NCBI GenBank assembly: GCA_031441465.1 | Contig: JANOEP010000046.1 | Coordinates: 69,359 to 133,358 of the forward strand | DNA: 64,000 nt | Direction of reading: 5' to 3' | Source: a bacterium | GTDB lineage: Bacteria > Krumholzibacteriota > Krumholzibacteriia > LZORAL124-64-63 | In this document: one piece after another, positions 24,771 through 42,478 of the stretch | Position numbering within the stretch: the first letter of the stretch is position 1 | Layout: the number at the start of each line of letters is the position of its first letter | Program-made: the position numbers and the translations under genes | The notes under the pieces: model-generated | Told to the model about the DNA's origin: nothing | Databases searched by the model: none | The model's input: the letters and a program-made list of their open reading frames with translations, nothing else

Positions 24771-24793
24771 CTGCGCGGTAAGATCGCGGGCGG

Positions 24794-26452: not shown

Positions 26453-26473
26453 GCTCCGCCTCCCCGCCGCGGG

Positions 26474-26559
26474 AAACGGCCCGGCCCCGTCGGGACCGGG
26501 CCGCTTCGGCAGCCCCGCGCAGTGTAGCGGGTGCGCCGGCCGCGGTCAACGCGGCCGGC
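26474..26559 (-). terminator. Two tandem GC-rich hairpins immediately downstream of the first giant gene (putative factor-independent terminator without a U-tract)
   Basis: GCCGGCCGCG-gtcaa-CGCGGCCGGC (10-bp stem) directly after the stop codon. About 35 nt further on, a second ~12-bp interrupted hairpin, CGGCCCGGCCCG-t-CGGGaCCGGGCCG. Confidence 0.4.
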
Positions 26560-29500: not shown

Positions 29501-31454
29501 GGGCGGCGGGCGACGCCGTCCACATGCTCTGGCCGGGATCTCCGAGCAGCGTGTAGTTCAGGTACGTCCAGCGGGTGAAGCTGTTGGCCGGCGCGTACGC
29601 CAGCCAGGGCAGGCGGCTCGCGGTCATCAGGTCGCCGAGCCGGGGCTGGGCGTCGCACATCATGGCCTCGAAGAAAGCCTTCTGGAAATCGTTCGCGGTC
29701 GCCGGGAAGGCCGCCCGCGTGGCGCCGATCGAGGCGAAGGAGCCGCCGTTGGGGTTCTGCACGAACCGCTCCATGAGGCAGCCGTAGTCGAAGGCCGCCG
29801 AGGCGCAGTTCAGGGCGTACATCAGGAACGGCCGGGTGATGCCGTTGTGCAGGTTGTCGGCGTCGTTGATCGTGATGTTGGCGTCGCCCATGTTCATGTT
29901 GAAGAAGAAGCCGTGGCCGATCTGGTTGAAGACGTTGAAATGGCCGGTGTTCAGGCTGTCCAGCGCGGCGAGGCGGGTCTCGCGGACCGCCCCGGGGTAC
30001 ATCGGCTGGCCGAGGCCGTCCAGGCGGTCCCAGGCCTCGAACATCCGCACCGCCGTCATGTCCGTGCAGGGAGCCACGACTTCGTCCACGAGGGCCTGGG
30101 CGTATGTCGCGCCGTCGAGTGTGATGTCGCCCTCGGAGTTGGTGAACAGGACTTCGGCCGCGGTCAGGAAGCGGTTGGCGTAACCGGCGCCGGTGGCGGC
30201 GTTCTCGTAATTGAGGACCTTGGTCACGAAGGTGTTCACGTCCGCCACGGAACTCACCGGTGCGCGGCCGAAGGAGATGTCGCTGGCGACGTCGCAGTCG
30301 TCGCCGGGGTTGGATTCGTTGACGTTCGGCTCGCCGAAGTCGGCGTCCCCGTCCAGGTTCCAGTTCCCGTCGAGGCAGGCGAAGTAGAGGTCGGCCGGGA
30401 TCAGGGTCGTGCCTCCGGGCGGGTAGAAGTTGCTCAGCGCGTAGCGCGCCGGCACGACGTCCGTATCGCCGCCGAGCAGGACGTACTGGACGCCCCAGCG
30501 TTCGTAGGCGTCGCGGATGAACATGCGGACCGTCTCCTGGATGTCGACCCCGTGACGGTAGTTGGCCTCGATCCACTCCAGGGACTTGACGACGGCGGGC
30601 AGGCCCTGGGAAGTGCGGTAATCGGCCAGCGGCTGGAACGCGGCCGCCAGCGCGTCGCTGGTGATGATCAGGTAGGACACCGCCGAGCCGCTGAGGCTGG
30701 GCGTCTTGTCGGGGGAGAAACCGCCGACGGCCGTCGCGACGTCGGCCCCGTCCTCGCGGACGTACCCGGACAGCGCCTCGGGGTTGGCCAGGACGCCGGC
30801 GAGTCGCTGTTCGATCTTCTGGCGTTCGCCCGCGACCCGGCGCTGGCGCACGGCGACATCGGCCTGTCCGGCGGCAGCCGGCGCGGGCAACAACCGGATC
30901 TCGTAGCTCTCGAGCAGTTCGACCTCGCGCCACGAGCCGTCCGCCGCCTGCAGCGCGCGCAACGGGAACACCGTGACGGTGACCAGCCGGTACCCGTTCA
31001 TGACGTGGTTGCCGCCGAAACGCCCCCAGACGGACGGGAAGGACGTCTTGCTCCCGGGCACGACATCCTGGCGGCCGGGCACGCCCTCGCTGCTGAGCGG
31101 AGCGGCGGCCAGCGCCAGGTCCCCGGGCACGCGCAGTTTCCGCGTGGAGAGGGGCACGACTTCGACGGCTCCGTACGAGGTCGCCATCGGGACCAGCAGG
31201 GTCAGCGAGCGGCCGACCAGGTCGGGCCGACCGGTCTCCTGCAGGGGCTGCGTGTCGACCAGGCGCGGCAACACGTCCCCGCCCGGCTGCGTCGACCAGG
31301 CCAGGTCGGCCGCGGCGAACGAGCCCCGGTAGACGACGTCTCCGGCGGCCTGGGAGCCGGTGGTCGCCAGCAACGGCAACAGGACCGCGGCGAGCCCCCA
31401 GAGGGCGCGCGCGGCGCGAGGACCGACAGAGTCGTTGCGGTTCTTCCGATGCAT
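26565..31454 (-). CDS. Giant secreted multidomain protein: peptidase-C25 (gingipain/PorU-like) domain, FN3-like domain, seven FG-GAP/VCBS beta-propeller repeats, and a T9SS-type C-terminal sorting domain (Por_Secre_tail / FlgD-Ig-like)
   Basis: Signal peptide MHRKNRNDSVGPRAARALWGLAAVLLPLLATTGSQAAG. C25 motifs YLIITSDALAAAFQPLADYRTSQG, YVLLGGDTDVVPARY, IGHGFFFNMN and LNCASAAFD. FN3 region GYHVYRS...RYYYRVTCVD. Repeated DxDxDGxxE blades (VGDIDGDGEVEVV, ADLDGDGAKDIVF, IADLDNDGLKEII, VGDFDNDGRLEIV, ICDLDQDGYVNLVY). C-terminal sorting domain LMPNVPNPFNPSTTARLYV...GVYFLRAQ...KMLLVK. Start placed at Met75 of the track ORF; the upstream extension would include the promoter. Confidence 0.85.
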   Translation of the reverse strand: MHRKNRNDSVGPRAARALWGLAAVLLPLLATTGSQAAGDVVYRGSFAAADLAWSTQPGGDVLPRLVDTQPLQETGRPDLVGRSLTLLVPMATSYGAVEVVPLSTRKLRVPGDLALAAAPLSSEGVPGRQDVVPGSKTSFPSVWGRFGGNHVMNGYRLVTVTVFPLRALQAADGSWREVELLESYEIRLLPAPAAAGQADVAVRQRRVAGERQKIEQRLAGVLANPEALSGYVREDGADVATAVGGFSPDKTPSLSGSAVSYLIITSDALAAAFQPLADYRTSQGLPAVVKSLEWIEANYRHGVDIQETVRMFIRDAYERWGVQYVLLGGDTDVVPARYALSNFYPPGGTTLIPADLYFACLDGNWNLDGDADFGEPNVNESNPGDDCDVASDISFGRAPVSSVADVNTFVTKVLNYENAATGAGYANRFLTAAEVLFTNSEGDITLDGATYAQALVDEVVAPCTDMTAVRMFEAWDRLDGLGQPMYPGAVRETRLAALDSLNTGHFNVFNQIGHGFFFNMNMGDANITINDADNLHNGITRPFLMYALNCASAAFDYGCLMERFVQNPNGGSFASIGATRAAFPATANDFQKAFFEAMMCDAQPRLGDLMTASRLPWLAYAPANSFTRWTYLNYTLLGDPGQSMWTASPAALTVSVPASLPLGAQNVPITITSGGLPVVGARVVLSRSGDVYVWGDTDGAGQVSLNIVPVDTGSLTLTVTARNSARKVQSLPVTGTGAYIALQSMTVTDNGTGGTIGNGNGIAEAGETVAFTARFQDTGSGGAAGVTAVLSSAAAGVTILDGNAAVATIPSGGSANALDTFLVRFDAAMADGNHVTFTVVADNLPAGPWTSRWELVVKAPEVEAIALDWFDAPYGDNDGLLENNERVTVLMTLENFGAGRADGLAAVLRTSSPNVVLYDSLLTYPNLDLLQTSSGTALVSLKVLNVTLPYDARLVVTDSRGRRFVHSFKMTTPAVPTDLSSVTALGPDVIELKWTPVNQPGVRGYHVYRSQNAAGPFTRSNYDLLGRISYFRDTGLDLLTRYYYRVTCVDSFLVEGAASTVFAKSTSPSELAPFPLPFAVETSSHCAVGDVTGDHRLEIVMASDEVYVWTEDGQELFDGDNDSQTLGPITNLNARLSPMGVTLANLDGDPALEILCAERDLKLMFAYNADGSQVPGWPRSTGTMWVWAPPAVGDIDGDGEVEVVANNLAGRTLAWHADGTEVRDGDNNPATQGVLIDRSAVLPYDEWCRSAPALADLDGDGAKDIVFGTRYRTVATNLLLAYRHNGTQVPGFPITAGSGGNIMCSPTIADLDNDGLKEIIYISEEDSLRVVRQNGTRYPGFPRYFRSQSTNGDVTCPSPAVGDFDNDGRLEIVAVEVFGASSSSVHVVDTDVAGGTSGQTMSGWPRSVPGNTESSPVVGDLNGDHLPDVVFGIGGGDTESPNNIYAFSHAGVDLDGFPLTLGGPIRPAPVICDLDQDGYVNLVYGGWDLQIHVWDLPATYYPNEMPWPTFRGNYLRDGVFRFIATTPVEEAPPPAARLSLMPNVPNPFNPSTTARLYVPAGGEGPLSVEIFDVQGRLVRSLHRGPVAPGWLTVTWHGQDDAGRPQASGVYFLRAQRGAEGSTLKMLLVK

Positions 31455-31693: not shown

Positions 31694-31700
31694 TAGCCCG

Positions 31701-31718: not shown

Positions 31719-34700
31719 TCAACGCACCAATGACATTTTCCCGACGGCTTCGCCCGCCGCGGAGCGCAACCGGTAGAGGTAGACGCCCGCCGGGACCGGC
31801 CTCCCGGCATCGTCCTCGCCGCGCCAAACGACGGCGTGGCCGCCGGCGGTCCGGACTTCGTTCAGCAAACGGCGGACTTCGCGGCCGAGCAGATCGTAGA
31901 CGGTCAGCGCAACCTCGCCGCGGAATCCCGCCGGCAACTCGAACTCGATGCGCGTGGCGGGATTGAAAGGATTGGGCACGTTTTGGCGGAGGGCCAGGAC
32001 CGCGCCCGGCAACGGATGTCCGGCGCCGGTCGCCGTGTCCGGCAGCGTCCAGACCCCCGTGCGCGCTCCGTTCGCGTGGAAGGTCGGCCACGGCATGTTC
32101 TCCGGGCTCCAAGGTTGCTGCAGGTCCCAGACGTGCATGGCCAGGTCCCAGCCGCCGTACACGAGATCCACATCCCCGTCCCGGTCGAGGTCCGTCAGGG
32201 TCGGCGTGGAGCGGACCGGCCCGCCCACGACCAGCGGGAAGCCCGGCACCGTCGTGCCGTCGTGCCGGAAGCCGTAGATGTGGTTCGGGGACGTGTCGGT
32301 GCCGCCGCCGATGCCGAAGATGACGTCGGGACGGCCGTCGCCCGTGATGTCCCCCACCAGCGGCGACGCCTCCGAGTTGCTCGCCAGCAACTGGGGCCAG
32401 CCCGCGATCACCGTGCCGTTCTTGCGGTAGGCGCAGAGGTACGAGGTGTGGCCGTCGACCACCTTGACCGCCACGATGTCCAGCACGCCGTCGCCGTCCA
32501 GGTCGCCGAGGGCGGGCGACGGGCAGGGGATGCCGGCTTGCCCGCTGTTCGCCGTGAAGGCCAGCGGGAACGGCGCCACCGCCTGGCCCGTCTCATCGAT
32601 CACATAGAGCTTGTCGTTCTCGGTGACGAACACGATCTCGAGCACGCCGTCGCCGTCGAGGTCGCCGGCCGCGGGCGAACAGATAGACGAGGACCAGGCG
32701 CCCAGCATGAAAGGCCAGCCGGCGGCGTCGACGGCGTTGTTGCCCAGGGCGTGCACACGGTCGGCCGCGCCGTTCATGTAGCGGGACACGACCACGACTT
32801 CGCGCCGGCCGTCGTGGTCGACGTCGACCAGCAACGGCGCGCCGAACTGGTAGGACTCGCCGGTCCGGACCTGGAAGACGCCGACGGTGGCGGGGTTGGC
32901 GTCGCCGTCGAAGAAGTCGCGGCCGTCGTGGTGCCAGACGTAGGTGATGCCGGCGGTCGAGGTGACCACGACTTCGGCGTCGCCGTCGCCGTCGAGGTCG
33001 CCGACGGCGGGCGCGGCCCAGTTCCAGGCGTTGATGGTGCGCGGCCAGCCGGGCGCCGTGGTGCCGTCTCCCTGGAAGACGTAGATGGAATTGCCGCTGC
33101 GGCACGAGGCGACGATCTCGAGACCGGGATGGGGCGTGAGGTCGGCCAGGGTGACGGCGGCCGGCGTCCAGGTCTGACCGATGCTGATGAACGGGCCGCT
33201 GGTGGCGGGGTTGGCGTCGCCGTCGCGCAGTTCCTGCCCGGTGGCGTCCCAGGCGTAGATGGCGTCCGCCGCGGTCACGACATCCAGGACGCCGTCGCCG
33301 TCGATGTCGCCGACCGCGACATGGCTGGACGTCTCGGCGTGCATGGCGATCGGGAAGCCGCCGATTTCCGTCGGCGAAGAATCGAGGAACCCGGTCGACG
33401 ACTGCCGGCCCTCCAGACCCGAGGAATCCTGGGCGGTGACCCGGTAGTAATAGCGGGTCAGGGCGGCGAGTCCCAAGTCCTGGAAGAATCCGCCGTGCAC
33501 GGGCTCGGCGGTCAGGCGCTGGAAGCCCGAGTTCGGCGTCGTCGAGCGGTACACGTGGTAGCCCGCGATGTCGGTGGCGGACGAGGGTGGCCACGAGATC
33601 GCGGCCGTCAGCGCGGCGGGGCTGGCGACCGACGGCAGACTGACCTGGTCGGGACGGCTGAAATCGAACTCGTGGACCCACGTGCGGCCCAGACCGTCGG
33701 CGATGTGCAGGCGGGCCCGGCGGCTGTTCGAGATGGAGTTCATGCTCAGCAGGAACTCGGTCGCCTGCTGGACCTCGCCCCGCGGTCCGAGCACCGGCCA
33801 GGACGTCGTGCCGGCCGTGATGTTGACGCCCGGCAGCCCCGTCTCCAGCCATCCGGTCAGGCCGGCCGCGCCGCCCCGGCCGTCGTTGCGCAGGTCGAAC
33901 CAGACGCGGATCACTTCGTTGACGTCGATGGTGCCGTTGCCGTTGCCGTAGGGAAAATCGTTCCAGCGCAGGATTCCGGGCGAGAGCGCCGGCGCCACGA
34001 CTTCCAGGGTGAAATCCTCCCGACAGACGGCATACCCGTCGGAGCTGCCGAGGGTGAAGAGCAATTCGGTCCGGTCGGCCAGGTCGCGGTCCAGACCGAT
34101 CAGCAGCGGCGCGCCGGCGGGACCGCTCGCTCCGGCCGCGAGCGCCGGCGCCTGGCAGGCGGCGACGAGCAGGTCGACGGCGGGATGCGCGCAGGCGAGC
34201 GACAGCGCGGCGGGTTGCAGCAGCGGGGCGTCGCCGCCGTTGCGCAGGACGGGCAGCACGGCGATCACTTCGCCGGCGTCCGGGAGGCCGTCGGCGTTGC
34301 CGGCGGAGCCGTAGGCGCCGTTGTCGAAGATCGTCAGCGTGGCGAGACCCAGATAGGGCTGACCGGAGCCGCCGACGGCGACGCCGCCCGCGTACGGGAT
34401 GCAGTCCGCGGCGGTCACGGTGAGGTCCAGGTCGCCGGCGCTGTTCGGCACGACGTCGAGCGCGACGGTGCCGTCGGCGCCCGTCAGTCCCGTGGCCAGC
34501 ACGTCACCCGCTTTGTAGAGGCAGACCCGGGCGCCGGCCAGGGACACGCCGGCCCGCCGCACCTCGATCAGGGCCGTCGACGGCCCGAGCGGCAGGACTG
34601 CGGGCGCGGTGACCGTGAGCGTCTGCGGCGCCGCGGTCCAGAGCTGCAGCGACGGATCGCCGAGCACCGCCATCGCCATCTGCGTCCAGCGTTCGACGGT

Positions 34701-36548
34701 GTTCTGCTGGGAGGCGGCGAGCCAGACCAGGCGGCTCGCATCCACCGCGGCGCCCGCGGACGGCTGGCGCTCGTCGAACACGGCGGCGTAGAAGCTCTTC
34801 TGGAAGTAGCCCGCCGTCTGGGCGAACGCCGCCCGGGAAGAGCCGATCGCCAGCACGGCGCCGCCCTGGGCGTTGGTCATGAACCGTTCCATGATGGAAT
34901 GGTAGTCGAAGGCCGCCGAGGCGCAGTTCAGGTTGTTCAGGATGAAGGCGTGGGGGCTGTTGACGAGGGCTGCCGCGTCGGTCAGGGACAGGGTCTTGTC
35001 GCCCACCGACATGTCGAAGAAGAACCCGTGACCGATATGATTGATGTAGCCGTACAACCCGGTGTTCATGGCGGCCAGCACGCCGGCCTTCGTCTCGGGT
35101 AGCGAGCCGGGCCACAGGGGGCTCGCTTCGTAATGCCTCGTGACCGGAACGTTCTTCCCTTCGAGCACCTCGGTGATGATCGCCTCGCTGTACGCGGCGC
35201 CGTCGATCTCGATCGGGGTTCCCGGCGTGTAGGCGCTCGGGAACAGGACTTCGCTGAGGAACAGGACCTGCGCGAGGTGCGGGCCGACGGCATCGCGCTC
35301 GTGGGCGAGGATCTTCGCCACGAACACCTGCGCCTCCGCGGCCGACCTGACCGGTGCGCGCCCGACGTGCAGTTCGGGGGCCAGATCGGCGCCGTCGCCG
35401 GGATCGTAGGTATTGAAGTAGGGCTCGCCCGGCGTCTGGTCGCCGTCGGCGTTCCAGTCGCCGTCCAGACCGCCGTAGTAGAGATCGACCGGGATGTGGG
35501 AGCCCGTGCCCGAAGGGTAGAAGGAGTTGTAGACCATCCGGACCGGCAGCAGTTCGACGTCGCCGCCTAGCAGGGCGTAGTCGGCCCCCCAGCGCACGTA
35601 GGCGTCGGTCAGGAACGAGCGGATCGTCGCCGGCAGATCCTCCCCCGCCGGATAGGTCGCCTGGATCCAGGACAGTGTCCTGACGACCGTCGGGAGCCCC
35701 CGCGCGGTCTTGTAGTCGGCCAGTTGCTGGAACACGGACGACAGTTCGTCGGTCGTGACGATGACCATGCCCACCGCGGGGCCGTCGAGGCTGGGCACGA
35801 GCGTCGGCGCGAAGGCGTCACCGGCCGCCCGGTCCCCGGAGACGGCCGCCGGTATCGCGTACGCGTCGCGGGCGGACGGGTTGGCGACGAGCCGCGCCAG
35901 CGCAGCCGGCTGCAGGTCCGCGCCGCCGGGGTGGGAGCGCAGGCGCACGGCGCGCGGCGCCGGGTCGTCGTCCAGCTGCAGCCGGATCGTGAAGTCCGTG
36001 GCCGACTCGCGCTGGTCCCATGGCTTGCCCGCAGAAGTGCGGCGCAAACGCTCGGGATGGATGCGGACCGTCGCCAGCCCCATCCCGTGCCACACGGCCT
36101 GCCCCGTCAATTCGCCCCAGGACGCCGGATACCTGTCGTCCGCCTCGCCGGCGACGTTCCCGGCGCCCGGCAAACCTTCCGACGAAAGCAACGGCGGGCA
36201 CGGGGTGGTGTCTCCCGGCGGCAGGGCCACGATCCCGTCGACCGGAACGACCTCGGCCGCGAGCGCGCGTTGGCCGGGAGGCAGCAGGATCAGCAGGTCG
36301 CGGAACGGCATCTCGGGCCGGCCCGGCGCGCGCAGGAACCCCGCCGTCACCGGCGCGCCGGCTTGGTCGACACCGGTCACTTCCAAAACCAGCTCCCGAT
36401 TCCCGGGGCCGGCGGCCCCCTGGGACGCTCCGACCGGGGCGACGGCGAAGCCGACCAGGGTCAGCCAGGCGAACCCGCGCAGCCGGTTCCGCCATGACGG
36501 ACCGGCTACCTCGAACCAGGGGCGGGACTTGGCGACGTACCGGTGCAA
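31719..36548 (-). CDS. Giant secreted multidomain protein, paralog (~45% identity) of 26565..31454: peptidase-C25-like, FN3, FG-GAP/VCBS repeats, T9SS-type C-terminal sorting domain
   Basis: Same motif series: MVIVTTDELSSVFQQLADYKTARG, YALLGGDVELLPVRMV, HIGHGFFFDMS, LNCASAAFD, GYHVYRS...RYYYRVTAQD, VGDIDGDGVLDVV / VGDLDGDGDAEVV / VDVDHDGRREVV / LGDLDGDGVLDIV / LTDLDRDGDVDLV, and a C-terminal LRQNVPNPFNPATRIEFEL...GVYLYRL...KMSLVR. The start is uncertain: the track ORF begins at a TTG with no Shine-Dalgarno sequence, so I chose the in-frame TTG at 36548 (AAGGA 10 nt upstream), which gives a signal-like GFAWLTLVGFAVAPVGASQG. Confidence 0.8.
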   Translation of the reverse strand: MHRYVAKSRPWFEVAGPSWRNRLRGFAWLTLVGFAVAPVGASQGAAGPGNRELVLEVTGVDQAGAPVTAGFLRAPGRPEMPFRDLLILLPPGQRALAAEVVPVDGIVALPPGDTTPCPPLLSSEGLPGAGNVAGEADDRYPASWGELTGQAVWHGMGLATVRIHPERLRRTSAGKPWDQRESATDFTIRLQLDDDPAPRAVRLRSHPGGADLQPAALARLVANPSARDAYAIPAAVSGDRAAGDAFAPTLVPSLDGPAVGMVIVTTDELSSVFQQLADYKTARGLPTVVRTLSWIQATYPAGEDLPATIRSFLTDAYVRWGADYALLGGDVELLPVRMVYNSFYPSGTGSHIPVDLYYGGLDGDWNADGDQTPGEPYFNTYDPGDGADLAPELHVGRAPVRSAAEAQVFVAKILAHERDAVGPHLAQVLFLSEVLFPSAYTPGTPIEIDGAAYSEAIITEVLEGKNVPVTRHYEASPLWPGSLPETKAGVLAAMNTGLYGYINHIGHGFFFDMSVGDKTLSLTDAAALVNSPHAFILNNLNCASAAFDYHSIMERFMTNAQGGAVLAIGSSRAAFAQTAGYFQKSFYAAVFDERQPSAGAAVDASRLVWLAASQQNTVERWTQMAMAVLGDPSLQLWTAAPQTLTVTAPAVLPLGPSTALIEVRRAGVSLAGARVCLYKAGDVLATGLTGADGTVALDVVPNSAGDLDLTVTAADCIPYAGGVAVGGSGQPYLGLATLTIFDNGAYGSAGNADGLPDAGEVIAVLPVLRNGGDAPLLQPAALSLACAHPAVDLLVAACQAPALAAGASGPAGAPLLIGLDRDLADRTELLFTLGSSDGYAVCREDFTLEVVAPALSPGILRWNDFPYGNGNGTIDVNEVIRVWFDLRNDGRGGAAGLTGWLETGLPGVNITAGTTSWPVLGPRGEVQQATEFLLSMNSISNSRRARLHIADGLGRTWVHEFDFSRPDQVSLPSVASPAALTAAISWPPSSATDIAGYHVYRSTTPNSGFQRLTAEPVHGGFFQDLGLAALTRYYYRVTAQDSSGLEGRQSSTGFLDSSPTEIGGFPIAMHAETSSHVAVGDIDGDGVLDVVTAADAIYAWDATGQELRDGDANPATSGPFISIGQTWTPAAVTLADLTPHPGLEIVASCRSGNSIYVFQGDGTTAPGWPRTINAWNWAAPAVGDLDGDGDAEVVVTSTAGITYVWHHDGRDFFDGDANPATVGVFQVRTGESYQFGAPLLVDVDHDGRREVVVVSRYMNGAADRVHALGNNAVDAAGWPFMLGAWSSSICSPAAGDLDGDGVLEIVFVTENDKLYVIDETGQAVAPFPLAFTANSGQAGIPCPSPALGDLDGDGVLDIVAVKVVDGHTSYLCAYRKNGTVIAGWPQLLASNSEASPLVGDITGDGRPDVIFGIGGGTDTSPNHIYGFRHDGTTVPGFPLVVGGPVRSTPTLTDLDRDGDVDLVYGGWDLAMHVWDLQQPWSPENMPWPTFHANGARTGVWTLPDTATGAGHPLPGAVLALRQNVPNPFNPATRIEFELPAGFRGEVALTVYDLLGREVRRLLNEVRTAGGHAVVWRGEDDAGRPVPAGVYLYRLRSAAGEAVGKMSLVR

Positions 36549-36631
36549 GGCTGGGTTGTCCTTCGGGCTGGTGTGTCCGGCAGGGCCGGGGCGAAACACA
36601 TCCGCCGGAAACCGCAACTGTCAACACGGTG

Positions 36632-36648
36632 GGTAACATCCCGTTACC
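36632..36648 (-). promoter_or_regulatory. Perfect palindrome GGTAAC-N5-GTTACC in the leader of the second giant gene (candidate operator or hairpin)
   Basis: Located about +10 to +30 downstream of the predicted transcription start. Confidence 0.3.
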
Positions 36649-36662
36649 GATTGACTTACTCC

Positions 36663-36691
36663 ATATTACCACGTGGGCCCCGACCCGTCAA
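36663..36691 (-). promoter_or_regulatory. Near-consensus sigma70 promoter for the second giant gene
   Basis: Minus strand reads TTGACG, a 17-nt spacer, then TAATAT. The -35 overlaps the stop codon of the upstream gene. Confidence 0.5.
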
Positions 36692-38010
36692 TCGCCCCCC
36701 TGCACTCCAGAGCGGCGGGAAGGCCCGTCGACGAGGCGGGATTCGCCGGCGGCGGCGAAGAAGAGGCGTCCCCCCGGCAGCACGACCGGGCGCCTGGCAT
36801 GCGAGAGGTTGCGCACCCAAAGCCCGTCCCCCGCTTGGCGCCACGAGGTGCCGCCGCGCGACAGGCGCGCCACTTCCACGTCGGTCAGGTAGAGCGGTTC
36901 GTCGCCCAGAGCCGACAGGAGCCCCGCCAAGGCTTCCCGCCCCTCGGTCGCGACCTCCGGTTCGAGGTGGGCGTAGTTGACCCGGTGCGACTCGACGACG
37001 GCGGGTTCGCCCCGATTCCAGGCGCGGCGCACGCGGCGTTCGGCCCGGGCCGTCGCCTCTGCGGGGTCGCCGATCTGGGCCGTCTCCAGCCGGACATTGC
37101 GCTCGAGGTAGACGAGCCGGTGTTCGCTCAACCGGCGCAGGGGCCGGGCCAGGGCCTTGCGCAGACGACCGAGCGGCCCCTCGTAGTCCGGATGCCGTTG
37201 CTCGCGCTGGGATTGCACGACCGTCAAGCCCGCGGCGCGCCACAGCCGCTCGTGCCGGCGGGACCAGTGGTAATCGGGGGCGATGACCGCGTCAGGGGCA
37301 CGGCCGAAGACGACTTCAAAGGCCGTCAATCCCGTGGCGAGTTCGGCGGCGACCAGGGCGAGGGGGCGCGCGTCGTCCAATTCGAACGAGTGCTGGCTCC
37401 CCGGAAAGAGCAGGAACCCCCGCCGGGCCGCCGCGGCGGCGATCGGATCGCGTGCGCAGGCGGCGGCGCGGGCCGCGGGATCGTAGTGCCAGAGCCCGTG
37501 GTATTCGGGGTACCACACGCCCGCCGCGACGGCGTCCGCCACGGCCTTCCAGAGGCCGGGGCGCGCATATTCCGCGGGGAATTCGGGCAGGGTGCCGCTG
37601 CGGAAGGCCGGGCCGCCCGGCGAACCGGTCCCGGAGCCCGCCGCCAGCCAGCCCATGATGTAGTTGGGCTGCAGGACGGCCGGACCGCCGTCCCGGCCGC
37701 GGCATCCCGACAGCACGGCGGCCAGCGCGCTGACCGCGGCGCTGTCTTCCAGCGTCGAATTCAGGTAGGCGGCCGGGGTGTTGCCGGTGCGCAACCGGGC
37801 GAGGTTGTCGGCCACGACTCCGGAGCCGGCGACGGCGTCGGCGTCGGGCGCGTAACCGCACAGCCCCCAATCGTCGCTCTCGATCACCACGGCCCGCGCC
37901 GCCCGCCAGTCCACCAGGGACGGGGCGCCGCCCAGAACCAGGCCGAGACCCAGCAGGAGCGCGGCCGCCACGAGTGCGGCGCGTCCCGGTGTGAGCAGCC
38001 TTCCCGTCAT
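36688..38010 (-). CDS. Hypothetical membrane-anchored/secreted protein (~440 aa), possibly a carbohydrate-esterase/deacetylase-like enzyme
   Basis: Signal anchor MTGRLLTPGRAALVAAALLLGLGLVLGG, then VIESDDWGLCGY and WYPEYHGLWHYD motifs reminiscent of NodB-type deacetylases; this is a weak call. GGAGAGGGGAGA Shine-Dalgarno sequence; ATGA overlap with the upstream methyltransferase stop. Confidence 0.6.
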   Translation of the reverse strand: MTGRLLTPGRAALVAAALLLGLGLVLGGAPSLVDWRAARAVVIESDDWGLCGYAPDADAVAGSGVVADNLARLRTGNTPAAYLNSTLEDSAAVSALAAVLSGCRGRDGGPAVLQPNYIMGWLAAGSGTGSPGGPAFRSGTLPEFPAEYARPGLWKAVADAVAAGVWYPEYHGLWHYDPAARAAACARDPIAAAAARRGFLLFPGSQHSFELDDARPLALVAAELATGLTAFEVVFGRAPDAVIAPDYHWSRRHERLWRAAGLTVVQSQREQRHPDYEGPLGRLRKALARPLRRLSEHRLVYLERNVRLETAQIGDPAEATARAERRVRRAWNRGEPAVVESHRVNYAHLEPEVATEGREALAGLLSALGDEPLYLTDVEVARLSRGGTSWRQAGDGLWVRNLSHARRPVVLPGGRLFFAAAGESRLVDGPSRRSGVQGGD

Positions 38011-38666
38011 GGCGCCGTCTCCCCTCTCCAGCGGGCCCACCAGTACCACCCGTAGTCGAGCCCATCGCGCGCGATGGCCGCGGTGAGGGCGGCGGTCGCG
38101 CGGTCGGGCGCGCCGCCGTCGCCACGCAGCAGCGCCAGCACCCCTTCCCGATCGGGGGGCTCGGCGCGGTTGAGGTCGCGGCCGAAGCTCCATCCCGCGA
38201 GACCGACGGATCCGGCCAAGGCGCCCCGCAGCTCCTCGAGCGCCGGCAGGCGCCCGCGCGAGGGGACCAGGCGGGCCAACCAATCCCGCAGATCCCGGTC
38301 GTTGCGGCGCGCCGGGGTGTCGGCCCGCGGATCGTCCTGCAGGAGGTGCAGGCAGCCGCCCGGAGCCAGGCAGCCGATCCAGGCCGTCGCGTCCGCGACG
38401 ACGTCGGCGGCGCCACCGAGATGGTGAAGCAGGTTCGCGGCCACGATCAGGTTCACCGCGCCGGGGCGCACCGGCAACGCGCGGGCATCGCCCACGATAC
38501 CGCCGGTGGGACCGGGTCGCCGGTTGTCCAGGGGGACCACGTCCGCGCCCGCCTCGCCCAACGCCCGCGTGAAGCGCCCGTCTCCGGCGCCCAGTTCGAG
38601 GACGACCCCGCCCCGCAGGCGGGCGAGGTCACTCCGCAGGAGGTCCGGGAGTGGTGAGAACGACAT
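38007..38666 (-). CDS. Class I SAM-dependent methyltransferase
   Basis: Motif I VLELGAGDGRFT and motif post-I DVVPLD. The start overlaps the 3' end of the upstream gene by 38 nt. Confidence 0.8.
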   Translation of the reverse strand: MSFSPLPDLLRSDLARLRGGVVLELGAGDGRFTRALGEAGADVVPLDNRRPGPTGGIVGDARALPVRPGAVNLIVAANLLHHLGGAADVVADATAWIGCLAPGGCLHLLQDDPRADTPARRNDRDLRDWLARLVPSRGRLPALEELRGALAGSVGLAGWSFGRDLNRAEPPDREGVLALLRGDGGAPDRATAALTAAIARDGLDYGWYWWARWRGETAP

Positions 38667-39915
38667 CGTCGGCTTCCGGGCGCGCCGGGCGCGGGACGTC
38701 GCGGCGCGTTTCGGTGACGGTCGTGCCGCCGCCGGCCGCGGCGACGATCCGCTCGACCTTCTGGCGTTCGACCTGGATGTCGATGATCTCGGCGACCTGG
38801 CGGCGGCGGCGCCGGAAGGAATCCTCGACCTGGTCGTCGAGGCCGAGGACGAAGAACAGTTCGCTGAAGAAATCGAGCGTGGGACCGCTCGCCTCGTGCC
38901 GGCGGCGATCGCCCCAGATCTTGATCGGCCACAGCCAGCAAGCCAGCGCGGGCAGGCCCAGCCAGGCCTGATTCAGGTAGTCGCTGAGACCGAACATGAT
39001 CGAACCGGCGGTGATCAGCAGCAGCAGCCGCACGGCGGCGCTCGGCTGGAAGCCCAGCCGCACCAGGCGGTGGTGCAGGTGGTAGTCGTCCGCTTCGAAG
39101 ATCGAGGCGCGCTTGCGCGAGCGGCGGATGATCGTGGTGCCGGTGTCCCAGATCGGGACGATCATCGGCGCGAGCAGCAGCAGCAACGAGACGCCGCCGT
39201 GCTGCCCGAGGTGCATCAGGAGCATGGCCAGCACGAGGCCCATCCACATGCTGCCCGAATCGCCCAGGAAGATCTTGCGGCTGCTCATGTTCCAGTACAT
39301 GAAGGCGAGGGTCGCGCCGCCGAGGGCCGCGGCGTACACCAGCGAGGTGCCGTCGCCCAGGGCGGCGGCGATCGCGACGATGCCGCAGCAGGCCAGCACG
39401 CCGATCCCGCTGGCCAAGCCGTCGAGGCCGTCGATGAGGTTCATGGAGTTGATGAAGCCCAGGTACCAGAGCAGGCTGATCGGCCAGGCCCAGCCCCCGA
39501 GATCGAAGGTGCCGAACAGCGGCAGGTCGATGGTCTGCAACCTCTGGCCGGCTACCATCAGGCCCAGGATCACCAGCAGCTGCCCGTAGAGCTTCTTCTC
39601 CGCGTGGATGTGGAAACGGTCGTCGCCCACGCCGAGGGCGAGGATCGCCAGACCGGACCCGCCGAGCACGGCCAGCCACGACCAGGGCAGAGCCCGGTGG
39701 AAGACCACGTTGTCCAGGATGAACAGGGTCACGAAGAAGGAGATGAAGATGGCCATGCCGCCGGTGCGCGGCACCGGCACGCGGTGGGTTCGGCGGTAGC
39801 CGGGGTGGTCCACGATCCCGGTCAGGAAGCCCAAACTGCGAAAATGGGGCTGGACGAGCCATGAGAGCGCAAAGGCAACCATGGCCGCGACCAGGACGAT
39901 GGACTGGTTGTTCAA
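38629..39915 (-). CDS. Polyprenyl-phosphate N-acetylhexosamine-1-phosphate transferase (WecA/MraY-family initiating transferase) with a C-terminal cytoplasmic extension
   Basis: Conserved WecA/MraY motifs (GVGDDRFHI, NSMNLIDGLDGLASG, LGDSGSMWMGLVLA) across 10-11 TM helices. TTG start after an AAGGGGA Shine-Dalgarno sequence. Confidence 0.85.
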   Translation of the reverse strand: MNNQSIVLVAAMVAFALSWLVQPHFRSLGFLTGIVDHPGYRRTHRVPVPRTGGMAIFISFFVTLFILDNVVFHRALPWSWLAVLGGSGLAILALGVGDDRFHIHAEKKLYGQLLVILGLMVAGQRLQTIDLPLFGTFDLGGWAWPISLLWYLGFINSMNLIDGLDGLASGIGVLACCGIVAIAAALGDGTSLVYAAALGGATLAFMYWNMSSRKIFLGDSGSMWMGLVLAMLLMHLGQHGGVSLLLLLAPMIVPIWDTGTTIIRRSRKRASIFEADDYHLHHRLVRLGFQPSAAVRLLLLITAGSIMFGLSDYLNQAWLGLPALACWLWPIKIWGDRRRHEASGPTLDFFSELFFVLGLDDQVEDSFRRRRRQVAEIIDIQVERQKVERIVAAAGGGTTVTETRRDVPRPARPEADDVVLTTPGPPAE

Positions 39916-39998
39916 ATTGATCCCCTTGGCATTCCCGTCGATCCGTCGTCGGGACGAGCCAACCGAACCCTAGGTCAGCCCCAGGGTGGTGGCAACGA

Positions 39999-41132
39999 TT
40001 AATTGGCGCCGTCGGTGCGAACGTCCAATAGCCTGAGGTATGCCGCGAGCGTCCTTTCCGCGGTGGAGCGCCAGGTCCAGATCGGGATCCGCGCCTCCCC
40101 GGCGCGAACCAGCCGATCGGCGAGCCCGGGCTCGCTCGAGATCCTGTGCATGGCGTCGGCGATGCCCCGAGGGGATTCGGGATCGACCAGCAGGGCGGCG
40201 TCTCCCGCCACCTCCCGCATGGCCCCCCGATCGGATGTGATCACCGGAAGGCGGGCCGCCATCGCCTCCAAGATCGGGAAACCGAACCCTTCGTGCAAGG
40301 AGGGAAAGAGCAAGGCCCGGGCCGAAACGAACTCCGCCCAGAGGGAATCACGGTCCCGGTACCCGACCAGCTCGACGGCGCCCGCGGCCACGGATCGCTG
40401 CAATCGCTCCAACAACGGGCGGTTGCACCAGCCCGGCGCGCCGATCACGCGCAAGCGGGGCGCCGGCGCCCCGGCCCCGGTCCGTGCCCGTGCGATTTCC
40501 AGGGCCGACAGGATGTTGTCGAGATTCTTGCGGGGCTCCAGGGCGCCGACGAACAGGAACGGCGCCCTGGCGGGCCGCTCGCGAGGAGCGGCGCGGCCCG
40601 CGGTCCAGGCGGGCGTGCCGAACGGGGTGGGCAGGATCTTGCCGGTGGTGAACGGAAAGGCCGCCGCCACCTCGCGGCCGGTCGCCGCCGAATTCACCAG
40701 CACGGCATCGGCGCGGCGCAACCCGGCCGGCAGGGTCGCCGCGTACCAGAGACGTCGCGCCGTCGGCACTGACCCCGGCAGGGAACGGAAGGCCAGGTCG
40801 TGGACGGTGACCGCCAGCCGGCAGGGCGTCCACAGCGGAGGCGGGATCGTCAAGGAGTGCAGGACGCCGGCGCCGAGCCGGCGGGCCACGCTCCCGAGCC
40901 GCCAACCGACGCTCGCCAGCCGCCCCGCGGGCAACGCCACCAGCTCCCATTGCGCGCGCCCCGGCGCGGCGTCGAGGCAGGTGAACAGCTCGGGATGGGA
41001 GGTCGCCAGGGCGAAGCGCAGCGGTCGCTCCTCGGCCGCCAGGGCCGTCACCAGCTCGACCATCGACCAGGCCACGCCCGTGCAGGGCGGCCGGGCGGCC
41101 GAGGCGTCCAGCAGGACCAGCGGCCGGCTCAC
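39999..41132 (-). CDS. Glycosyltransferase family 1 (GT4 clan)
   Basis: C-terminal EGFGFPILEAMAARLPVITSDRGAMREVAGDAALLVDP and a RfaG-like fold. GTG start after a GGGGAGGGG Shine-Dalgarno sequence, overlapping the upstream stop (GTGA). The N-terminal 390 aa of the 771-aa track ORF are antisense. Confidence 0.85.
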   Translation of the reverse strand: MSRPLVLLDASAARPPCTGVAWSMVELVTALAAEERPLRFALATSHPELFTCLDAAPGRAQWELVALPAGRLASVGWRLGSVARRLGAGVLHSLTIPPPLWTPCRLAVTVHDLAFRSLPGSVPTARRLWYAATLPAGLRRADAVLVNSAATGREVAAAFPFTTGKILPTPFGTPAWTAGRAAPRERPARAPFLFVGALEPRKNLDNILSALEIARARTGAGAPAPRLRVIGAPGWCNRPLLERLQRSVAAGAVELVGYRDRDSLWAEFVSARALLFPSLHEGFGFPILEAMAARLPVITSDRGAMREVAGDAALLVDPESPRGIADAMHRISSEPGLADRLVRAGEARIPIWTWRSTAERTLAAYLRLLDVRTDGAN

Positions 41133-42478
41133 GGCGACCCCTCCCCGGTGTTCGTGCGCTCGGGGCACGTCGCCGCCAACAGCATCCCCAGCGCCACCCA
41201 GATGTGGGGCAGGTTGTCCTGGGAGAAGGTCAGCAGTTGGGACCAGACGCCGACGACGGCGGCGGCCGCGGCCACGATGCGCAGGCGCTCGTCCGCCCGG
41301 GGCGTGACGGCCACGGTCAGCGCGCGCCAGGTCCGCCGCGCTGTGGCGACGACACCGGCGAGGAACACGGCCAGACCCGGCGCACCGGTCTCGCCGAGGA
41401 TCTTCAGCACCACGTTGTTCGCGACCGGCCAGGCGAACTGGCTCTGCAGGCCCATCGGCTCCACCAGCAACGGGAAATGGAAACCGTACTGCCCCCAGCC
41501 CACGCCGGTCCAGGGCGCCGCCAGGAAGCAGCGCCAGGCGGCCTGCATCGAATACCACCGCGTGAGGTTGGACCAGTCCTCGGTGCTGAAGGTCTGGAGC
41601 AGGCGCCTCAGGATCAGCAGCGGGCCGTCGCCGCCGGTGACCGCGACGGCGACGGTGACGACGGCCGCCACGGCCAGGACGGGGCGCAGCCAGCGCCGCC
41701 GCGGCGGCAGGACGCCCGCCCGCGCGCCGGCGACGACCGCGCAGACGGTCGACAGGCCGGCCGCGAACCAGGCGCCGCGCGACCAGGTCAGCAGCAGCAG
41801 CGCGAGGCCGCCCCCGATCAGCGCCTCCCGGCGGTAGCCGGGACGACCGGCGGCCCACAGCCACGGCAGGACCGCCAGCAGGTAGTTGCCGAGGTAGAGG
41901 GGTTCGCAGATCGTCCCGCGCAGGCGCGGGATGCCGACGAAGCCGCGGCCGAGGTAGAGTTCCTCCGAACCGCTGAGGATCGACGCGTTCGACGTGACCA
42001 CGTGCTCCGTCCAGGCGAACGCCGCGCCGGGTCGGTAGAAGCCCCAGGCCTGCCACGCGGCGTACAGCAACTGCAGGATCAGGCCCGCGGCCAGCGCGCC
42101 GACCGCCGTGCGCCAGCGGCGCTCGTCGCCGCGCAGCCACCACGCCGTGTGCAGGGCGAAGACGGCGGTCACGCCCCACTGCACGACCTGTTTCGCGTAG
42201 CGCAGCCAGGCTTCCTGGGGCGAGGCCAGCGAGGGCGCCAGCACCAAGCCGAGGGCGGACAACAGGAGCGCTCCGAGCGCGGCGAGCCACGGCCAGCCGC
42301 CGACGTCGGCCCAACCGGCCAGCAAGCGCCGCGGCCCGACGTTGACGGCGGCCAGGGTCACGGCCGCGGCCATCAGCAGGTACGAGGGCTGGAAACCGGC
42401 ACCGGGATCCCGGCCGGTCAGCAACGTGACCAGCCCGACCCCGGCCAGGGGCAAGCTGGCGAGAGCGGCGACGACCAT
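41129..42478 (-). CDS. O-antigen ligase / O-oligosaccharyltransferase-family membrane protein (Wzy_C domain; WaaL/PglL-like)
   Basis: About 12 TM helices and a periplasmic loop carrying the LLLTWSRGAWFAAGLS motif typical of the Wzy_C family. The start (Met37 of the track ORF) is uncertain. Confidence 0.7.
   Translation of the reverse strand: MVVAALASLPLAGVGLVTLLTGRDPGAGFQPSYLLMAAAVTLAAVNVGPRRLLAGWADVGGWPWLAALGALLLSALGLVLAPSLASPQEAWLRYAKQVVQWGVTAVFALHTAWWLRGDERRWRTAVGALAAGLILQLLYAAWQAWGFYRPGAAFAWTEHVVTSNASILSGSEELYLGRGFVGIPRLRGTICEPLYLGNYLLAVLPWLWAAGRPGYRREALIGGGLALLLLTWSRGAWFAAGLSTVCAVVAGARAGVLPPRRRWLRPVLAVAAVVTVAVAVTGGDGPLLILRRLLQTFSTEDWSNLTRWYSMQAAWRCFLAAPWTGVGWGQYGFHFPLLVEPMGLQSQFAWPVANNVVLKILGETGAPGLAVFLAGVVATARRTWRALTVAVTPRADERLRIVAAAAAVVGVWSQLLTFSQDNLPHIWVALGMLLAATCPERTNTGEGSP

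What the first reader, a model, noticed from the sequence alone, without database searches (positions are those of the whole stretch)
36688..42478. Glycan-assembly cassette with a WaaL/PglL-like ligase immediately upstream of the giant proteins: candidate dedicated anchoring or glycosylation system
Five co-directional genes end exactly where the second giant gene's promoter begins: the Wzy_C-family ligase, the GT1, the WecA-like initiating transferase, the SAM methyltransferase and the secreted 440-aa hypothetical protein. That promoter's -35 overlaps the last stop codon of the cassette.

An initiating transferase + elongating GT + methyltransferase + ligase is the minimal set for building a lipid-linked oligosaccharide and transferring it either to lipid A-core or to protein (PglL-type O-oligosaccharyltransferase).

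Its position next to proteins carrying T9SS-type sorting domains parallels the A-LPS attachment of T9SS cargo. It is separate from the heptose/core cluster at 12.5-20.5 kb.
Basis: inference. Interest (0 to 1): 0.65.

Follow-up and report, generated by a model that had tools for sequence, protein, structure and literature searches.

The report
Conserved glycan cassette beside gingipain-like giants
A five-gene sugar-chain assembly cassette sits directly upstream of giant gingipain-type surface proteases in every sampled genome of the uncultured phylum Krumholzibacteriota, so a dedicated surface-anchoring role is plausible but not shown.

Summary
Five tightly packed minus-strand genes (42478 to 36688) encode a Wzy_C-family membrane protein, a GT4 glycosyltransferase, a WecA/MraY-type initiating transferase, a SAM methyltransferase and a 440-aa protein. 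I assign the 440-aa protein by predicted fold and conserved motifs to the polysaccharide-deacetylase (CE4-like) superfamily.

The two "giant" genes downstream encode gingipain/PorU-family (C25) cysteine peptidases. They keep the His/Cys catalytic dyad and carry FG-GAP repeats and a T9SS type-A-like C-terminal domain.

The order cassette, giant(s), SBP_bac_5 holds in all 67 informative loci from about 74 Krumholzibacteriota species. The sigma-70-like promoter overlapping the last stop codon is conserved in three close relatives.

Caveats:
- Synteny also extends to unrelated housekeeping genes (H1-like, HinT, Lon), so it does not prove functional coupling.
- The Wzy_C protein cannot be assigned to WaaL or PglL. 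It has a WaaL-like fold and both conserved arginines, no PglL motif, and an invariant Asn where both families have their essential His.
- No flippase lies in the cassette.

Best reading: a phylum-wide, invariant common-antigen-like envelope glycan module. An A-LPS-like anchor role for CTD cargo is an attractive, untested inference.

The parts
41129..42478 (-). Wzy_C-family polytopic membrane protein (O-antigen ligase/polymerase-like), 449 aa. It keeps the two WaaL/PglL arginines (R234, R307) but has an invariant Asn354 at the position of the canonical His.
   Evidence: Pfam PF04932, 50 bits. AF2 model pLDDT 87.4. Foldseek finds only WaaL 7TPG, E 1e-5. Invariant residues from the ortholog alignment. 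Alignment with E. coli WaaL. Independent gene call.
39999..41132 (-). GT4-family (GT-B, Glycos_transf_1) glycosyltransferase, 377 aa. GTG start with a 4-nt overlap with the Wzy_C stop.
   Evidence: Pfam PF00534 88 bits, PF13692, PF13439. Gene call. Start codon.
38629..39915 (-). WecA/MraY-type polyprenyl-phosphate HexNAc-1-phosphate transferase (the initiating enzyme), 428 aa, with a charged C-terminal tail of about 100 aa.
   Evidence: Pfam PF00953, 111.8 bits. TIGR02380 wecA at 110 bits, below the 326 cutoff. Gene call.
38007..38666 (-). Soluble class I SAM-dependent methyltransferase, 219 aa.
   Evidence: Pfam Methyltransf_23 and Methyltransf_11 above cutoff. Gene call.
36688..38010 (-). 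440-aa protein with an N-terminal signal or anchor helix and a predicted polysaccharide-deacetylase-like (CE4/NodB-superfamily) barrel. Invariant D46, D47, H171 and H175. A family with no sequence model.
   Evidence: No Pfam or NCBIfam hit. AF2 pLDDT 87.7. Foldseek PDB hits: 3RXZ E 3e-6, NDST1 deacetylase domain, PuuE, HP0310, ArnD, IcaB, PgaB. Invariant columns.
36663..36691 (-). Sigma-70-like promoter match (TTGACG, 17 nt, TGgTAATAT). The first hexamer overlaps the stop codon of the 440-aa gene.
   Evidence: Promoter scan. Sequence. Hexamers invariant in L001, L002 and L015.
36549..36662 (-). Conserved leader of about 110 nt for giant A, with a predicted hairpin and possible pairing across the GAAGGA Shine-Dalgarno sequence.
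   Evidence: Alignments. Two compensatory pairs among four sequences, which is suggestive only.
31719..36548 (-). Giant A, 1609 aa: signal peptide, Peptidase_C25 (gingipain/PorU family) with the His/Cys dyad, C25 Ig-like domain, FN3-like region, FG-GAP repeats, and a T9SS type-A-like C-terminal domain.
   Evidence: Pfam. NCBIfam. Kgp alignment. Dyad conserved in 78 of 78. CTD. Start.
26565..31454 (-). Giant B, 1629 aa. Same architecture and 39.8% identical to A. It is the type present in all relatives.
   Evidence: Pfam and NCBIfam. tblastn across loci. Identity and start.
24794..26545 (-). Orphan SBP_bac_5 (Opp/Nik-type) solute-binding protein. It follows the giant gene in relatives, and the window shows no transporter genes beside it.
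   Evidence: Pfam. NCBIfam. Synteny.

Best explanation
The five genes form an undecaprenyl-phosphate-dependent module that builds one invariant, short envelope glycan. This glycan is shared by the whole phylum Krumholzibacteriota and resembles a "common antigen" more than a variable O-antigen.

Inferred pathway, based on family chemistry:
1. The WecA-type enzyme puts HexNAc-1-P on the lipid carrier.
2. The GT4 enzyme adds a second sugar.
3. The soluble methyltransferase methylates the unit on the cytoplasmic side.
4. A flippase encoded elsewhere moves the unit across the membrane.
5. The membrane-anchored CE4-like enzyme, predicted to face outward, removes an N-acyl group.
6. The Wzy_C-family protein transfers the unit to an envelope acceptor, most likely lipid A-core, or polymerises it.

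The module always sits immediately upstream of separately promoted genes for gingipain-family peptidases that carry T9SS-type C-terminal domains. The most likely biological link is that its product is the surface glycolipid to which such CTD proteins are tethered, as with A-LPS in Porphyromonas.

Shown: gene content, folds, conserved residues, synteny and the promoter motif. Inferred: every enzymatic step, the acceptor, and the link to the giants.
For: Gene families and tight packing:
- Neighbouring cassette genes overlap or lie close together in 60-71 species. The median distance from each stop codon to the first aligned residue of the next gene ranges from an overlap of 35 nt to a gap of 111 nt.

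Invariance:
- The same five genes occur in the same order in about 74 species-level genomes, with WecA-like identity of 56-78%.
- There is one exception, L003, which lacks the GT4 gene.
- From general knowledge, O-antigen loci vary between species and even strains. An invariant cassette fits a conserved structure recognised by conserved machinery.

The 440-aa protein:
- Deacetylase-like fold.
- Invariant DD and HxxxH motifs.
- An N-terminal hydrophobic helix.
- Distant homologues lie in polysaccharide loci.

The Wzy_C protein:
- WaaL-like fold.
- R234 and R307 align with the essential R215 and R288 of E. coli WaaL (PMC3643930).

Link to the giants:
- Adjacency in 67 of 67 informative loci and in a more distant ortholog whose upstream genes differ.
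- The upstream neighbour varies: glnA is adjacent in only 9 of 46 loci.
- The giants are C25 enzymes closest to gingipains, which are the classic A-LPS-anchored T9SS cargo, and they carry a type-A-like CTD.
- In P. gingivalis, cargo is amide-linked to a free amine of a linking sugar whose synthesis needs a CE4 deacetylase (VimE) and a glycosyltransferase (VimF) (PMC7468200).
Against: - No flippase, chain-length regulator or ABC exporter lies in the cassette.
- The canonical His of WaaL/PglL is an invariant Asn, so ligase activity is uncertain.
- Synteny also covers the unrelated H1-like, HinT-like and Lon genes downstream. Adjacency could therefore be inherited gene order.
- In most relatives the giant gene is separated from the cassette by at least about 280 nt (median). 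In this window it has its own promoter-like site. Co-regulation is not implied.
- No homologue of VimA or the Wbp enzymes is in the cassette.
- T9SS machinery has not been demonstrated for this phylum. Nothing was found in the window or in the searchable literature.
Confidence: 0.5

Rival explanations
1. This is a generic surface-polysaccharide or core-extension cluster with no specific relation to the giants. The Wzy_C protein would be a Wzy-type polymerase or a general ligase. The neighbourhood would simply be ancestral gene order retained in a slowly rearranging region.
For: - Downstream housekeeping genes (H1-like, HinT-like, Lon) are retained about as consistently as the junction between the cassette and the giant gene.
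- The giant gene has its own promoter-like site, and in most relatives a long intergenic gap.
- The canonical ligase His is missing.
- Homologues of the 440-aa protein in other phyla lie in ordinary EPS or O-antigen loci without C25 genes.
Against: - The gene content is invariant across a whole phylum, which is unusual for O-antigen or EPS loci.
- The upstream flank varies while the junction between the cassette and the giant gene never breaks.
- No Wzx or Wzz partner genes are present for a Wzy-type pathway.
Confidence: 0.3
2. The Wzy_C protein is a PglL/PilO-type O-oligosaccharyltransferase that glycosylates Ser/Thr residues of the neighbouring giant proteins directly.
For: - O-OTase genes are often adjacent to their target genes: 21 of 31 pglL homologues lie next to pilin genes (PMC3643930).
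- The gene lies outside the LPS core locus.
- The Wzy_C domain and the two arginines shared by WaaL and PglL are present.
Against: - No PglL_A (PF15864) or Wzy_C_2 hit at E <= 0.01.
- The His equivalent to PglL H349 is Asn.
- Four genes and a promoter lie between it and the giant gene.
- No sequence test separates O-OTases from ligases reliably.
Confidence: 0.08
3. The giants are not cargo but the attachment enzymes. They would be PorU-like C25 transpeptidases that cleave CTDs and join protein C-termini to the free amine created on the cassette's glycan by the CE4-like deacetylase.
For: - PorU is a C25-family sortase-type transpeptidase with a retained CTD (PMC11285876).
- The giants keep the catalytic dyad in 78 of 78 orthologs.
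- They match the PorU model and the PorU structure 6ZA2, in the C25 domain at E 3.8e-11 and in the CTD at E 1e-4.
- The anchor chemistry in P. gingivalis needs a free amine (PMC7468200).
Against: - The C25 domain scores higher against the gingipains RgpB (E 1.6e-22) and Kgp (3e-14) than against PorU.
- The PorU equivalog model scores 94 bits against a cutoff of 420.
- FG-GAP and FN3 modules and a length of about 1600 aa are not features of PorU.
- Whether a canonical PorU exists elsewhere in these genomes was not testable here.
Confidence: 0.07

Closest known systems
WecA-initiated, Und-P-linked conserved glycans joined to lipid A-core by WaaL (enterobacterial common antigen and O-antigen pathways)
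   Same: - A WecA/MraY-type initiating transferase, a GT-B glycosyltransferase and a Wzy_C-family membrane enzyme with a WaaL-like fold and the two conserved arginines.
- Gene content that is invariant across a whole taxon, as for ECA.
   Different: - No Wzx, Wzy or Wzz partner genes in the cluster.
- The canonical His (E. coli WaaL H338) is Asn.
- A methyltransferase and a predicted extracytoplasmic CE4-like enzyme are integral parts.
- It lies about 20 kb from the heptosyltransferase core cluster.
Porphyromonas gingivalis A-LPS with the Wbp/Vim linking-sugar pathway, which anchors T9SS type-A CTD cargo such as gingipains through PorU and PorZ
   Same: - Gingipain-family C25 proteins with type-A-like CTDs.
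- A glycan pathway containing a CE4-type deacetylase, a glycosyltransferase (GT4-family here) and an O-antigen-ligase-family protein.
- The known anchor chemistry needs a free sugar amine.
   Different: - In P. gingivalis the genes are dispersed rather than next to the cargo genes.
- VimE is proposed to deacetylate the Wbp-pathway sugar during linking-sugar biosynthesis. The protein here has an N-terminal membrane or signal helix and is unrelated in sequence to any Pfam CE4 model.
- No VimA or Wbp homologue is in the cassette.
- T9SS machinery is unverified in this phylum.
PglL/PilO O-oligosaccharyltransferases encoded next to their pilin targets
   Same: A Wzy_C-family enzyme encoded near a candidate secreted target, outside the LPS core locus.
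   Different: - No PglL_A motif.
- His349 equivalent absent.
- The target is not a pilin.
- Four genes and a promoter lie between the enzyme gene and the candidate target.
Gingipains RgpB and Kgp, and the PorU sortase (MEROPS family C25)
   Same: - Full-length Peptidase_C25 domain and the C25 Ig-like domain.
- Catalytic His and Cys.
- A C-terminal T9SS-type domain.
   Different: - About 1600 aa, with FN3-like and FG-GAP propeller modules.
- No haemagglutinin/adhesin domains were detected.
- Not an equivalog of PorU.

Membership tests
WaaL O-antigen ligase | Wzy_C (PF04932) domain in a polytopic membrane protein with a WaaL-like fold | tested here: met
   PF04932 at 50 bits against a cutoff of 31.7. 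AF2 model pTM 0.90. The best solved match is WaaL 7TPG, E 1.1e-5, TM 0.50/0.55; the only other match below E 0.01 is FtsW (8BH1, 3.8e-3).
WaaL O-antigen ligase | Two essential periplasmic arginines (E. coli R215 and R288) | tested here: met
   They align with R234 (TWSRGAW) and R307 (NLTRWYS), both invariant in 28 orthologs. Their importance is stated in PMC3643930.
WaaL O-antigen ligase | Essential conserved His in the H[NSQ]x9GxxG motif (E. coli H338) | tested here: not met
   The motif is in register as N354-N355-x9-G365-xx-G368, and Asn354 is invariant in 28 orthologs. Other conserved His residues (H334, H425) might substitute, but this was not tested structurally.
WaaL O-antigen ligase | Transfers Und-PP-linked glycan to lipid A-core | not testable with these tools
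   Needs genetics or biochemistry.
PglL/PilO protein O-oligosaccharyltransferase | PglL_A (PF15864) or PglL_B motifs flanking Wzy_C | tested here: not met
   No hit to PF15864 or PF11846 at E <= 0.01. These models are narrow; PilO itself lacks the PglL motifs (PMC3643930).
PglL/PilO protein O-oligosaccharyltransferase | Conserved His349 equivalent | tested here: not met
   This is the same position as WaaL H338, and it is Asn354 here (PMC3643930).
PglL/PilO protein O-oligosaccharyltransferase | Glycosylates Ser/Thr of a protein acceptor | not testable with these tools
   Needs glycoproteomics or reconstitution.
Wzy-dependent polymerisation pathway (Wzx/Wzy/Wzz) | Flippase and chain-length regulator genes accompany the polymerase | tested here: not met
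   None among the five genes or in the immediate flanks.
CE4/NodB-type polysaccharide deacetylase superfamily (the 440-aa protein) | Deacetylase-type beta/alpha barrel fold | tested here: met
   AF2 pLDDT 87.7. Foldseek PDB top hits are polysaccharide deacetylases: 3RXZ at E 3.4e-6 (TM 0.58 on the target), the NDST1 N-deacetylase domain, HP0310, ArnD, IcaB and PgaB.
CE4/NodB-type polysaccharide deacetylase superfamily (the 440-aa protein) | Asp plus His-His metal and catalytic motifs (TFDD; HxxxH) | tested here: inconclusive
   Invariant D46-D47 (ESDDWGL) and H171/H175 (HxxxH) occur in 27 sequences. This matches the pattern and order of the motifs, but the residues were not superposed on a solved active site.
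CE4/NodB-type polysaccharide deacetylase superfamily (the 440-aa protein) | Match to a curated CE4 sequence model (for example PF01522) | tested here: not met
   No Pfam or NCBIfam hit for any of 27 members, even at E <= 1. One distant relative carries PF10096/DUF2334.
T9SS type-A CTD cargo (the giants) | C-terminal Por_Secre_tail (TIGR04183) domain | tested here: inconclusive
   Window proteins score 16.7 and 21.1 bits at full length, and 22.9 for the isolated CTD of giant A, against a cutoff of 23. All 25 orthologous C-termini match at E <= 0.01, best 9e-10, and also match the PorU CTD. The PDB profile hits the PorU and PorZ CTDs.
T9SS type-A CTD cargo (the giants) | T9SS translocon and attachment complex encoded in the genome | not testable with these tools
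   No T9SS component was found in the 64-kb window. Whole genomes could not be searched. No paper held both Krumholzibacteriota and 'type IX secretion', the phylum's papers that I checked do not mention it, and a review of T9SS distribution across FCB phyla does not list the phylum.
Peptidase family C25 (gingipain/PorU) | Full-length C25 catalytic domain with the His/Cys dyad | tested here: met
   PF01364 at 194.6 and 186.7 bits over the whole model. His (NHIGHG) and Cys (NCASA) align with the Kgp dyad and are conserved in 78 of 78 orthologs. The profile hits RgpB at 1.6e-22.
PorU T9SS sortase | Equivalog-level match to NF033707 | tested here: not met
   94 and 82 bits against a cutoff of 420. 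The PorU structure scores below the gingipains.

The most novel reading that the evidence does not exclude
The block would be a physically linked "anchor plus enzyme" surface-attachment module of a non-Bacteroidota T9SS. The cassette, using a His-less Wzy_C ligase and a previously unmodelled periplasmic deacetylase, would make an amine-bearing glycolipid. That glycolipid would be the obligatory acceptor for C25-catalysed transpeptidation. The giant gingipain-like proteins would be either the phylum's PorU-equivalent sortases or self-anchoring cargo.
Probability: 0.15. Interest if true: 0.75.

Novelty: new variant of a known kind. Interest (0 to 1): 0.45.

Why it matters
How T9SS cargo is tethered to the cell surface has been worked out in only a few Bacteroidota such as Porphyromonas and Tannerella (PMC7468200, PMC11969387), where the anchor genes are scattered. 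A compact cassette that is invariant across a phylum and sits next to gingipain-family CTD proteins would offer a small set of genes to test.

With these genes one could ask whether other FCB phyla use an LPS-linked glycan anchor. One could also ask what minimal chemistry that anchor needs, such as a free amine made by a deacetylase.

Independently of that question, two enzyme groups are flagged for characterisation:
- A large unmodelled CE4-like family, with about 1300 cluster representatives.
- A Wzy_C clade that lacks the His considered essential in WaaL and PglL.

If the adjacency turns out to be only inherited gene order, the finding reduces to an ordinary, though unusually conserved, envelope-glycan cluster in an uncultured phylum.

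Tried and rejected
- Sequence searches of the Wzy_C protein, and of a 28-sequence profile of it, against the PDB found nothing real. hhalign against a single E. coli WaaL sequence was uninformative. Motif-level MAFFT alignment was used instead.
- Fold search cannot separate WaaL from PglL or Wzy, because among Wzy_C-family enzymes only WaaL was matched among solved structures.
- I looked for prior descriptions of T9SS or of this cluster in Krumholzibacteriota and found none.
- I tried to extend the synteny test outside the phylum through distant homologues of the 440-aa protein. Two look-ups landed on 2-kb contigs and were uninformative. Three informative contexts had no C25 gene.
- I considered that the WecA-like gene is MraY and rejected it: 43.8 bits against a cutoff of 192.
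- I considered that the giants are PorU orthologs and downgraded this reading.
- The first in-frame TTG at 36617 was rejected as the giant A start in favour of TTG 36548. That start has a GAAGGA Shine-Dalgarno sequence and agrees with independent gene calls.
- No Rfam family or tRNA is present in the window.

Full report
**What is there**

The window is about 71% G+C, so mechanical ORF lists are full of artefacts. Third-position GC analysis, Pfam and NCBIfam scans and independent gene calls on public contigs carrying the identical 440-aa protein agree on five minus-strand genes:

| Gene | Coordinates | Size | Notes |
|---|---|---|---|
| Wzy_C-family membrane protein | 41129-42478 | 449 aa | |
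| GT4 glycosyltransferase | 39999-41132 | 377 aa | GTG start, 4-nt overlap with the preceding stop |
| WecA/MraY-type phosphotransferase | 38629-39915 | 428 aa | |
| SAM methyltransferase | 38007-38666 | 219 aa | |
| Protein with no sequence-family hit | 36688-38010 | 440 aa | ATGA overlap with the methyltransferase stop |

Each start codon is preceded by a G-rich Shine-Dalgarno-like stretch. The upstream gene is glnA, at 42634-44028.

Downstream lie giant A (31719-36548), giant B (26565-31454) and an SBP_bac_5 gene with no transporter genes beside it in the window. TTGACG at 36691-36686 overlaps the TGA stop and is followed by a 17-nt spacer and TGgTAATAT. Both hexamers are invariant in three relatives whose adjacent coding DNA has diverged.

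**The 440-aa "hypothetical" protein**

It has more than 150 close homologues, all unnamed and without Pfam domains, and the sources that give a taxon name say Krumholzibacteria. An AlphaFold model built on 27 homologues is confident, with pLDDT 87.7 and pTM 0.88. Its best matches among solved structures are polysaccharide deacetylases and relatives: 3RXZ at E 3e-6, the NDST1 N-deacetylase domain, PuuE, HP0310, ArnD, IcaB and PgaB.

The alignment shows an N-terminal hydrophobic helix followed by invariant ESDDWGL and HxxxH motifs (D46, D47, H171, H175). These have the order and spacing of the CE4 Asp/His-His motifs. No curated sequence model detects any member.

An exhaustive profile search finds about 1300 cluster representatives at E <= 1e-3. 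In three distant members whose context could be read, the gene lies in ordinary polysaccharide or carbohydrate loci:
- An EPS cluster with GT4, EpsG, ATP-grasp and sulfotransferase genes in Aliifodinibius.
- A Wzm/Wzt-type cluster.
- A locus with carbohydrate-active enzyme genes (Glyco_hydro_42, PcRGLX).

I conclude that it is a predicted extracytoplasmic, membrane-anchored member of the deacetylase superfamily that acts on a glycan. The fold is shown; the activity is inferred.

**The "ligase"**

Only Wzy_C is detected. There is no PglL_A and no Wzy_C_2, and the best NCBIfam hit (IctB) is far below its cutoff. Sequence and profile searches of the PDB find nothing. The AF2 model (pLDDT 87.4) matches WaaL 7TPG and, more weakly, FtsW.

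Aligned with E. coli K-12 WaaL, the essential R215 and R288 correspond to the invariant R234 and R307. The essential H338 corresponds to the invariant Asn354, inside an otherwise perfectly registered NNx9GxxG motif. That His is conserved in both WaaL and PglL (PMC3643930).

The protein is neither firmly WaaL nor PglL-like. It belongs to a distinct Wzy_C clade, and whether it ligates or polymerises cannot be decided here.

**The giants**

Both have the same architecture:
- A signal peptide.
- A complete Peptidase_C25 domain (194.6 and 186.7 bits).
- The C25 Ig-like domain.
- An FN3-like stretch.
- FG-GAP repeats.
- A C-terminal FlgD_ig/T9SS-like domain.

The catalytic His and Cys align with those of Kgp and are conserved in 78 of 78 orthologous ORFs. 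A profile of the catalytic region hits RgpB (1.6e-22), then Kgp (3e-14), then PorU (3.8e-11). The giants are therefore gingipain-like rather than PorU orthologs; the PorU equivalog model gives 94 bits against a cutoff of 420.

The C-terminal 110 residues of all 25 orthologs tested hit TIGR04183 and the CTD part of PorU. A profile of them also hits the PorU and PorZ CTDs in the PDB. It strengthens the analogy, because gingipains are the classic A-LPS-anchored T9SS cargo (PMC7468200, PMC11285876).

**Synteny**

A scan of one genome per GTDB species returned 75 loci. tblastn with the window's proteins shows the order Wzy_C, GT4, WecA-like, methyltransferase, 440-aa gene, giant (one copy, or two in about 15 loci), SBP_bac_5. 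This holds in every locus that extends far enough:
- 67 of 67 for the junction between the 440-aa gene and the giant gene.
- In 7 further loci the contig ends within about 700 bp of the 440-aa gene.
- The one remaining locus is the distant Aliifodinibius homologue.
- One locus (L003) lacks the GT4 gene.

A more divergent metagenomic ortholog keeps the whole block while its upstream genes differ. The giant B type is the one found everywhere. The A type is an extra copy inserted between the cassette and B in a subset of loci.

Cassette genes overlap or lie close together; the median distance from each stop codon to the first aligned residue of the next gene is at most 111 nt. The gap before the giant gene is at least about 280 nt (median) in relatives, and 139 nt here.

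The test is weaker than it looks, however. Downstream H1-like, HinT-like and Lon genes are retained in nearly all loci that reach them, so this region is generally collinear in the phylum. Only the upstream flank is variable: glnA lies within 5 kb in 23 of 46 loci and is adjacent in 9 of 46.

**Interpretation**

Gene content that is invariant across a phylum argues against a conventional, hypervariable O-antigen locus. It favours a conserved "common" envelope glycan. This contrast rests on general knowledge of O-antigen variability and of the enterobacterial common antigen.

The chemistry implied by the families is as follows:
1. A HexNAc-primed Und-PP-linked unit is made.
2. A second sugar is added.
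3. The unit is methylated.
4. A flippase not encoded in the cassette moves it across the membrane.
5. It is de-N-acylated outside the cytoplasm.
6. The Wzy_C protein transfers or polymerises it.

In P. gingivalis, T9SS cargo is amide-bonded to a free amine on a linking sugar. Making that sugar needs the CE4 deacetylase VimE, the acyl-transfer enzyme VimA and the glycosyltransferase VimF. PorU then performs the transpeptidation, with A-LPS delivered by PorZ (PMC7468200, PMC11285876).

The cassette here has fold-level counterparts of the deacetylase, the glycosyltransferase and the ligase, but no VimA or Wbp homologue. The presence of T9SS machinery in this phylum could not be checked. None is in the window, and nothing was found in the searchable literature.

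I therefore rank the readings as follows:

| Reading | Confidence |
|---|---|
| Conserved envelope-glycan module, probably serving as an A-LPS-like anchor | 0.5 |
| Unrelated surface-glycan cluster whose position is inherited | 0.3 |
| Direct O-glycosylation of the giants | 0.08 |
| Giants acting as PorU-like sortases | 0.07 |

**Verdict**

The finding is real and better defined than before, with a sound but unproven hypothesis. It is a new variant of known glycan-assembly systems rather than a new kind of system. Its main value is as a compact, testable candidate for T9SS cargo anchoring outside Bacteroidota. It also points to two uncharacterised enzyme clades.

Noticed in passing
window 36549-36662 (minus strand): The leader of giant A, about 110 nt long, is more conserved among four relatives than the adjacent coding ends. 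It is predicted to form a 5' hairpin (two compensatory pairs) and a long-range pairing that covers the GAAGGA Shine-Dalgarno sequence. No Rfam family matches.
   Followed up: partly
window 24794-26545 (minus strand); loci L003-L074: An orphan Opp/Nik-type SBP_bac_5 solute-binding protein gene follows the giant gene in relatives (every locus that reaches at least 1.2 kb past the giant gene shows an SBP_bac_5 hit). In the window no permease or ATPase genes lie beside it. Its relation to the peptidases is unexplained; one possibility is capture of peptide products.
   Followed up: partly
window 26565-36548; loci L001-L074: The two giants are paralogs, 39.8% identical. Single-copy genomes carry the B type. 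The A type is an extra copy inserted between the cassette and B in about 15 of 67 loci.
   Followed up: partly
window 20568-26545 and the corresponding parts of the loci: Long-range collinearity across the phylum extends past the giants: SBP_bac_5, often an extra gene, an H1-like (HC2) protein, a HinT-like HIT protein on the opposite strand, and Lon. This is unusual conservation of gene order for proteins only 40-60% identical.
   Followed up: partly
window 12479-20620 (minus strand): A second envelope cluster: Bac_transf (WbaP-like initiating transferase), PMT_2 (ArnT/PMT-like), DUF3108, and four GT9 heptosyltransferase-like genes, one fused to a HAD phosphatase domain. There is no Wzy_C gene.
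   Followed up: partly
loci L001, L002, L005, L006 and others (record titles): Many of the public MAGs that carry this block are titled "Fibrobacteraceae", "Fibrobacter sp.", "Gemmatimonas sp." or "Gemmatimonadales". They share the Krumholzibacteriota-type cluster at high identity, so these labels look like mis-assignments.
   Followed up: no
window 36688-38010; P0241-P0388, L075, L083, L085: The 440-aa protein belongs to a large family with no curated model: 1314 cluster representatives at E <= 1e-3. Shorter members of about 375 aa occur in EPS or O-antigen-type clusters of other phyla. One relative carries DUF2334.
   Followed up: partly
window 44300-45640 (plus strand): A PIN-PhoH fusion protein gene lies divergent from glnA. 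The pair is retained in the closer relatives.
   Followed up: no
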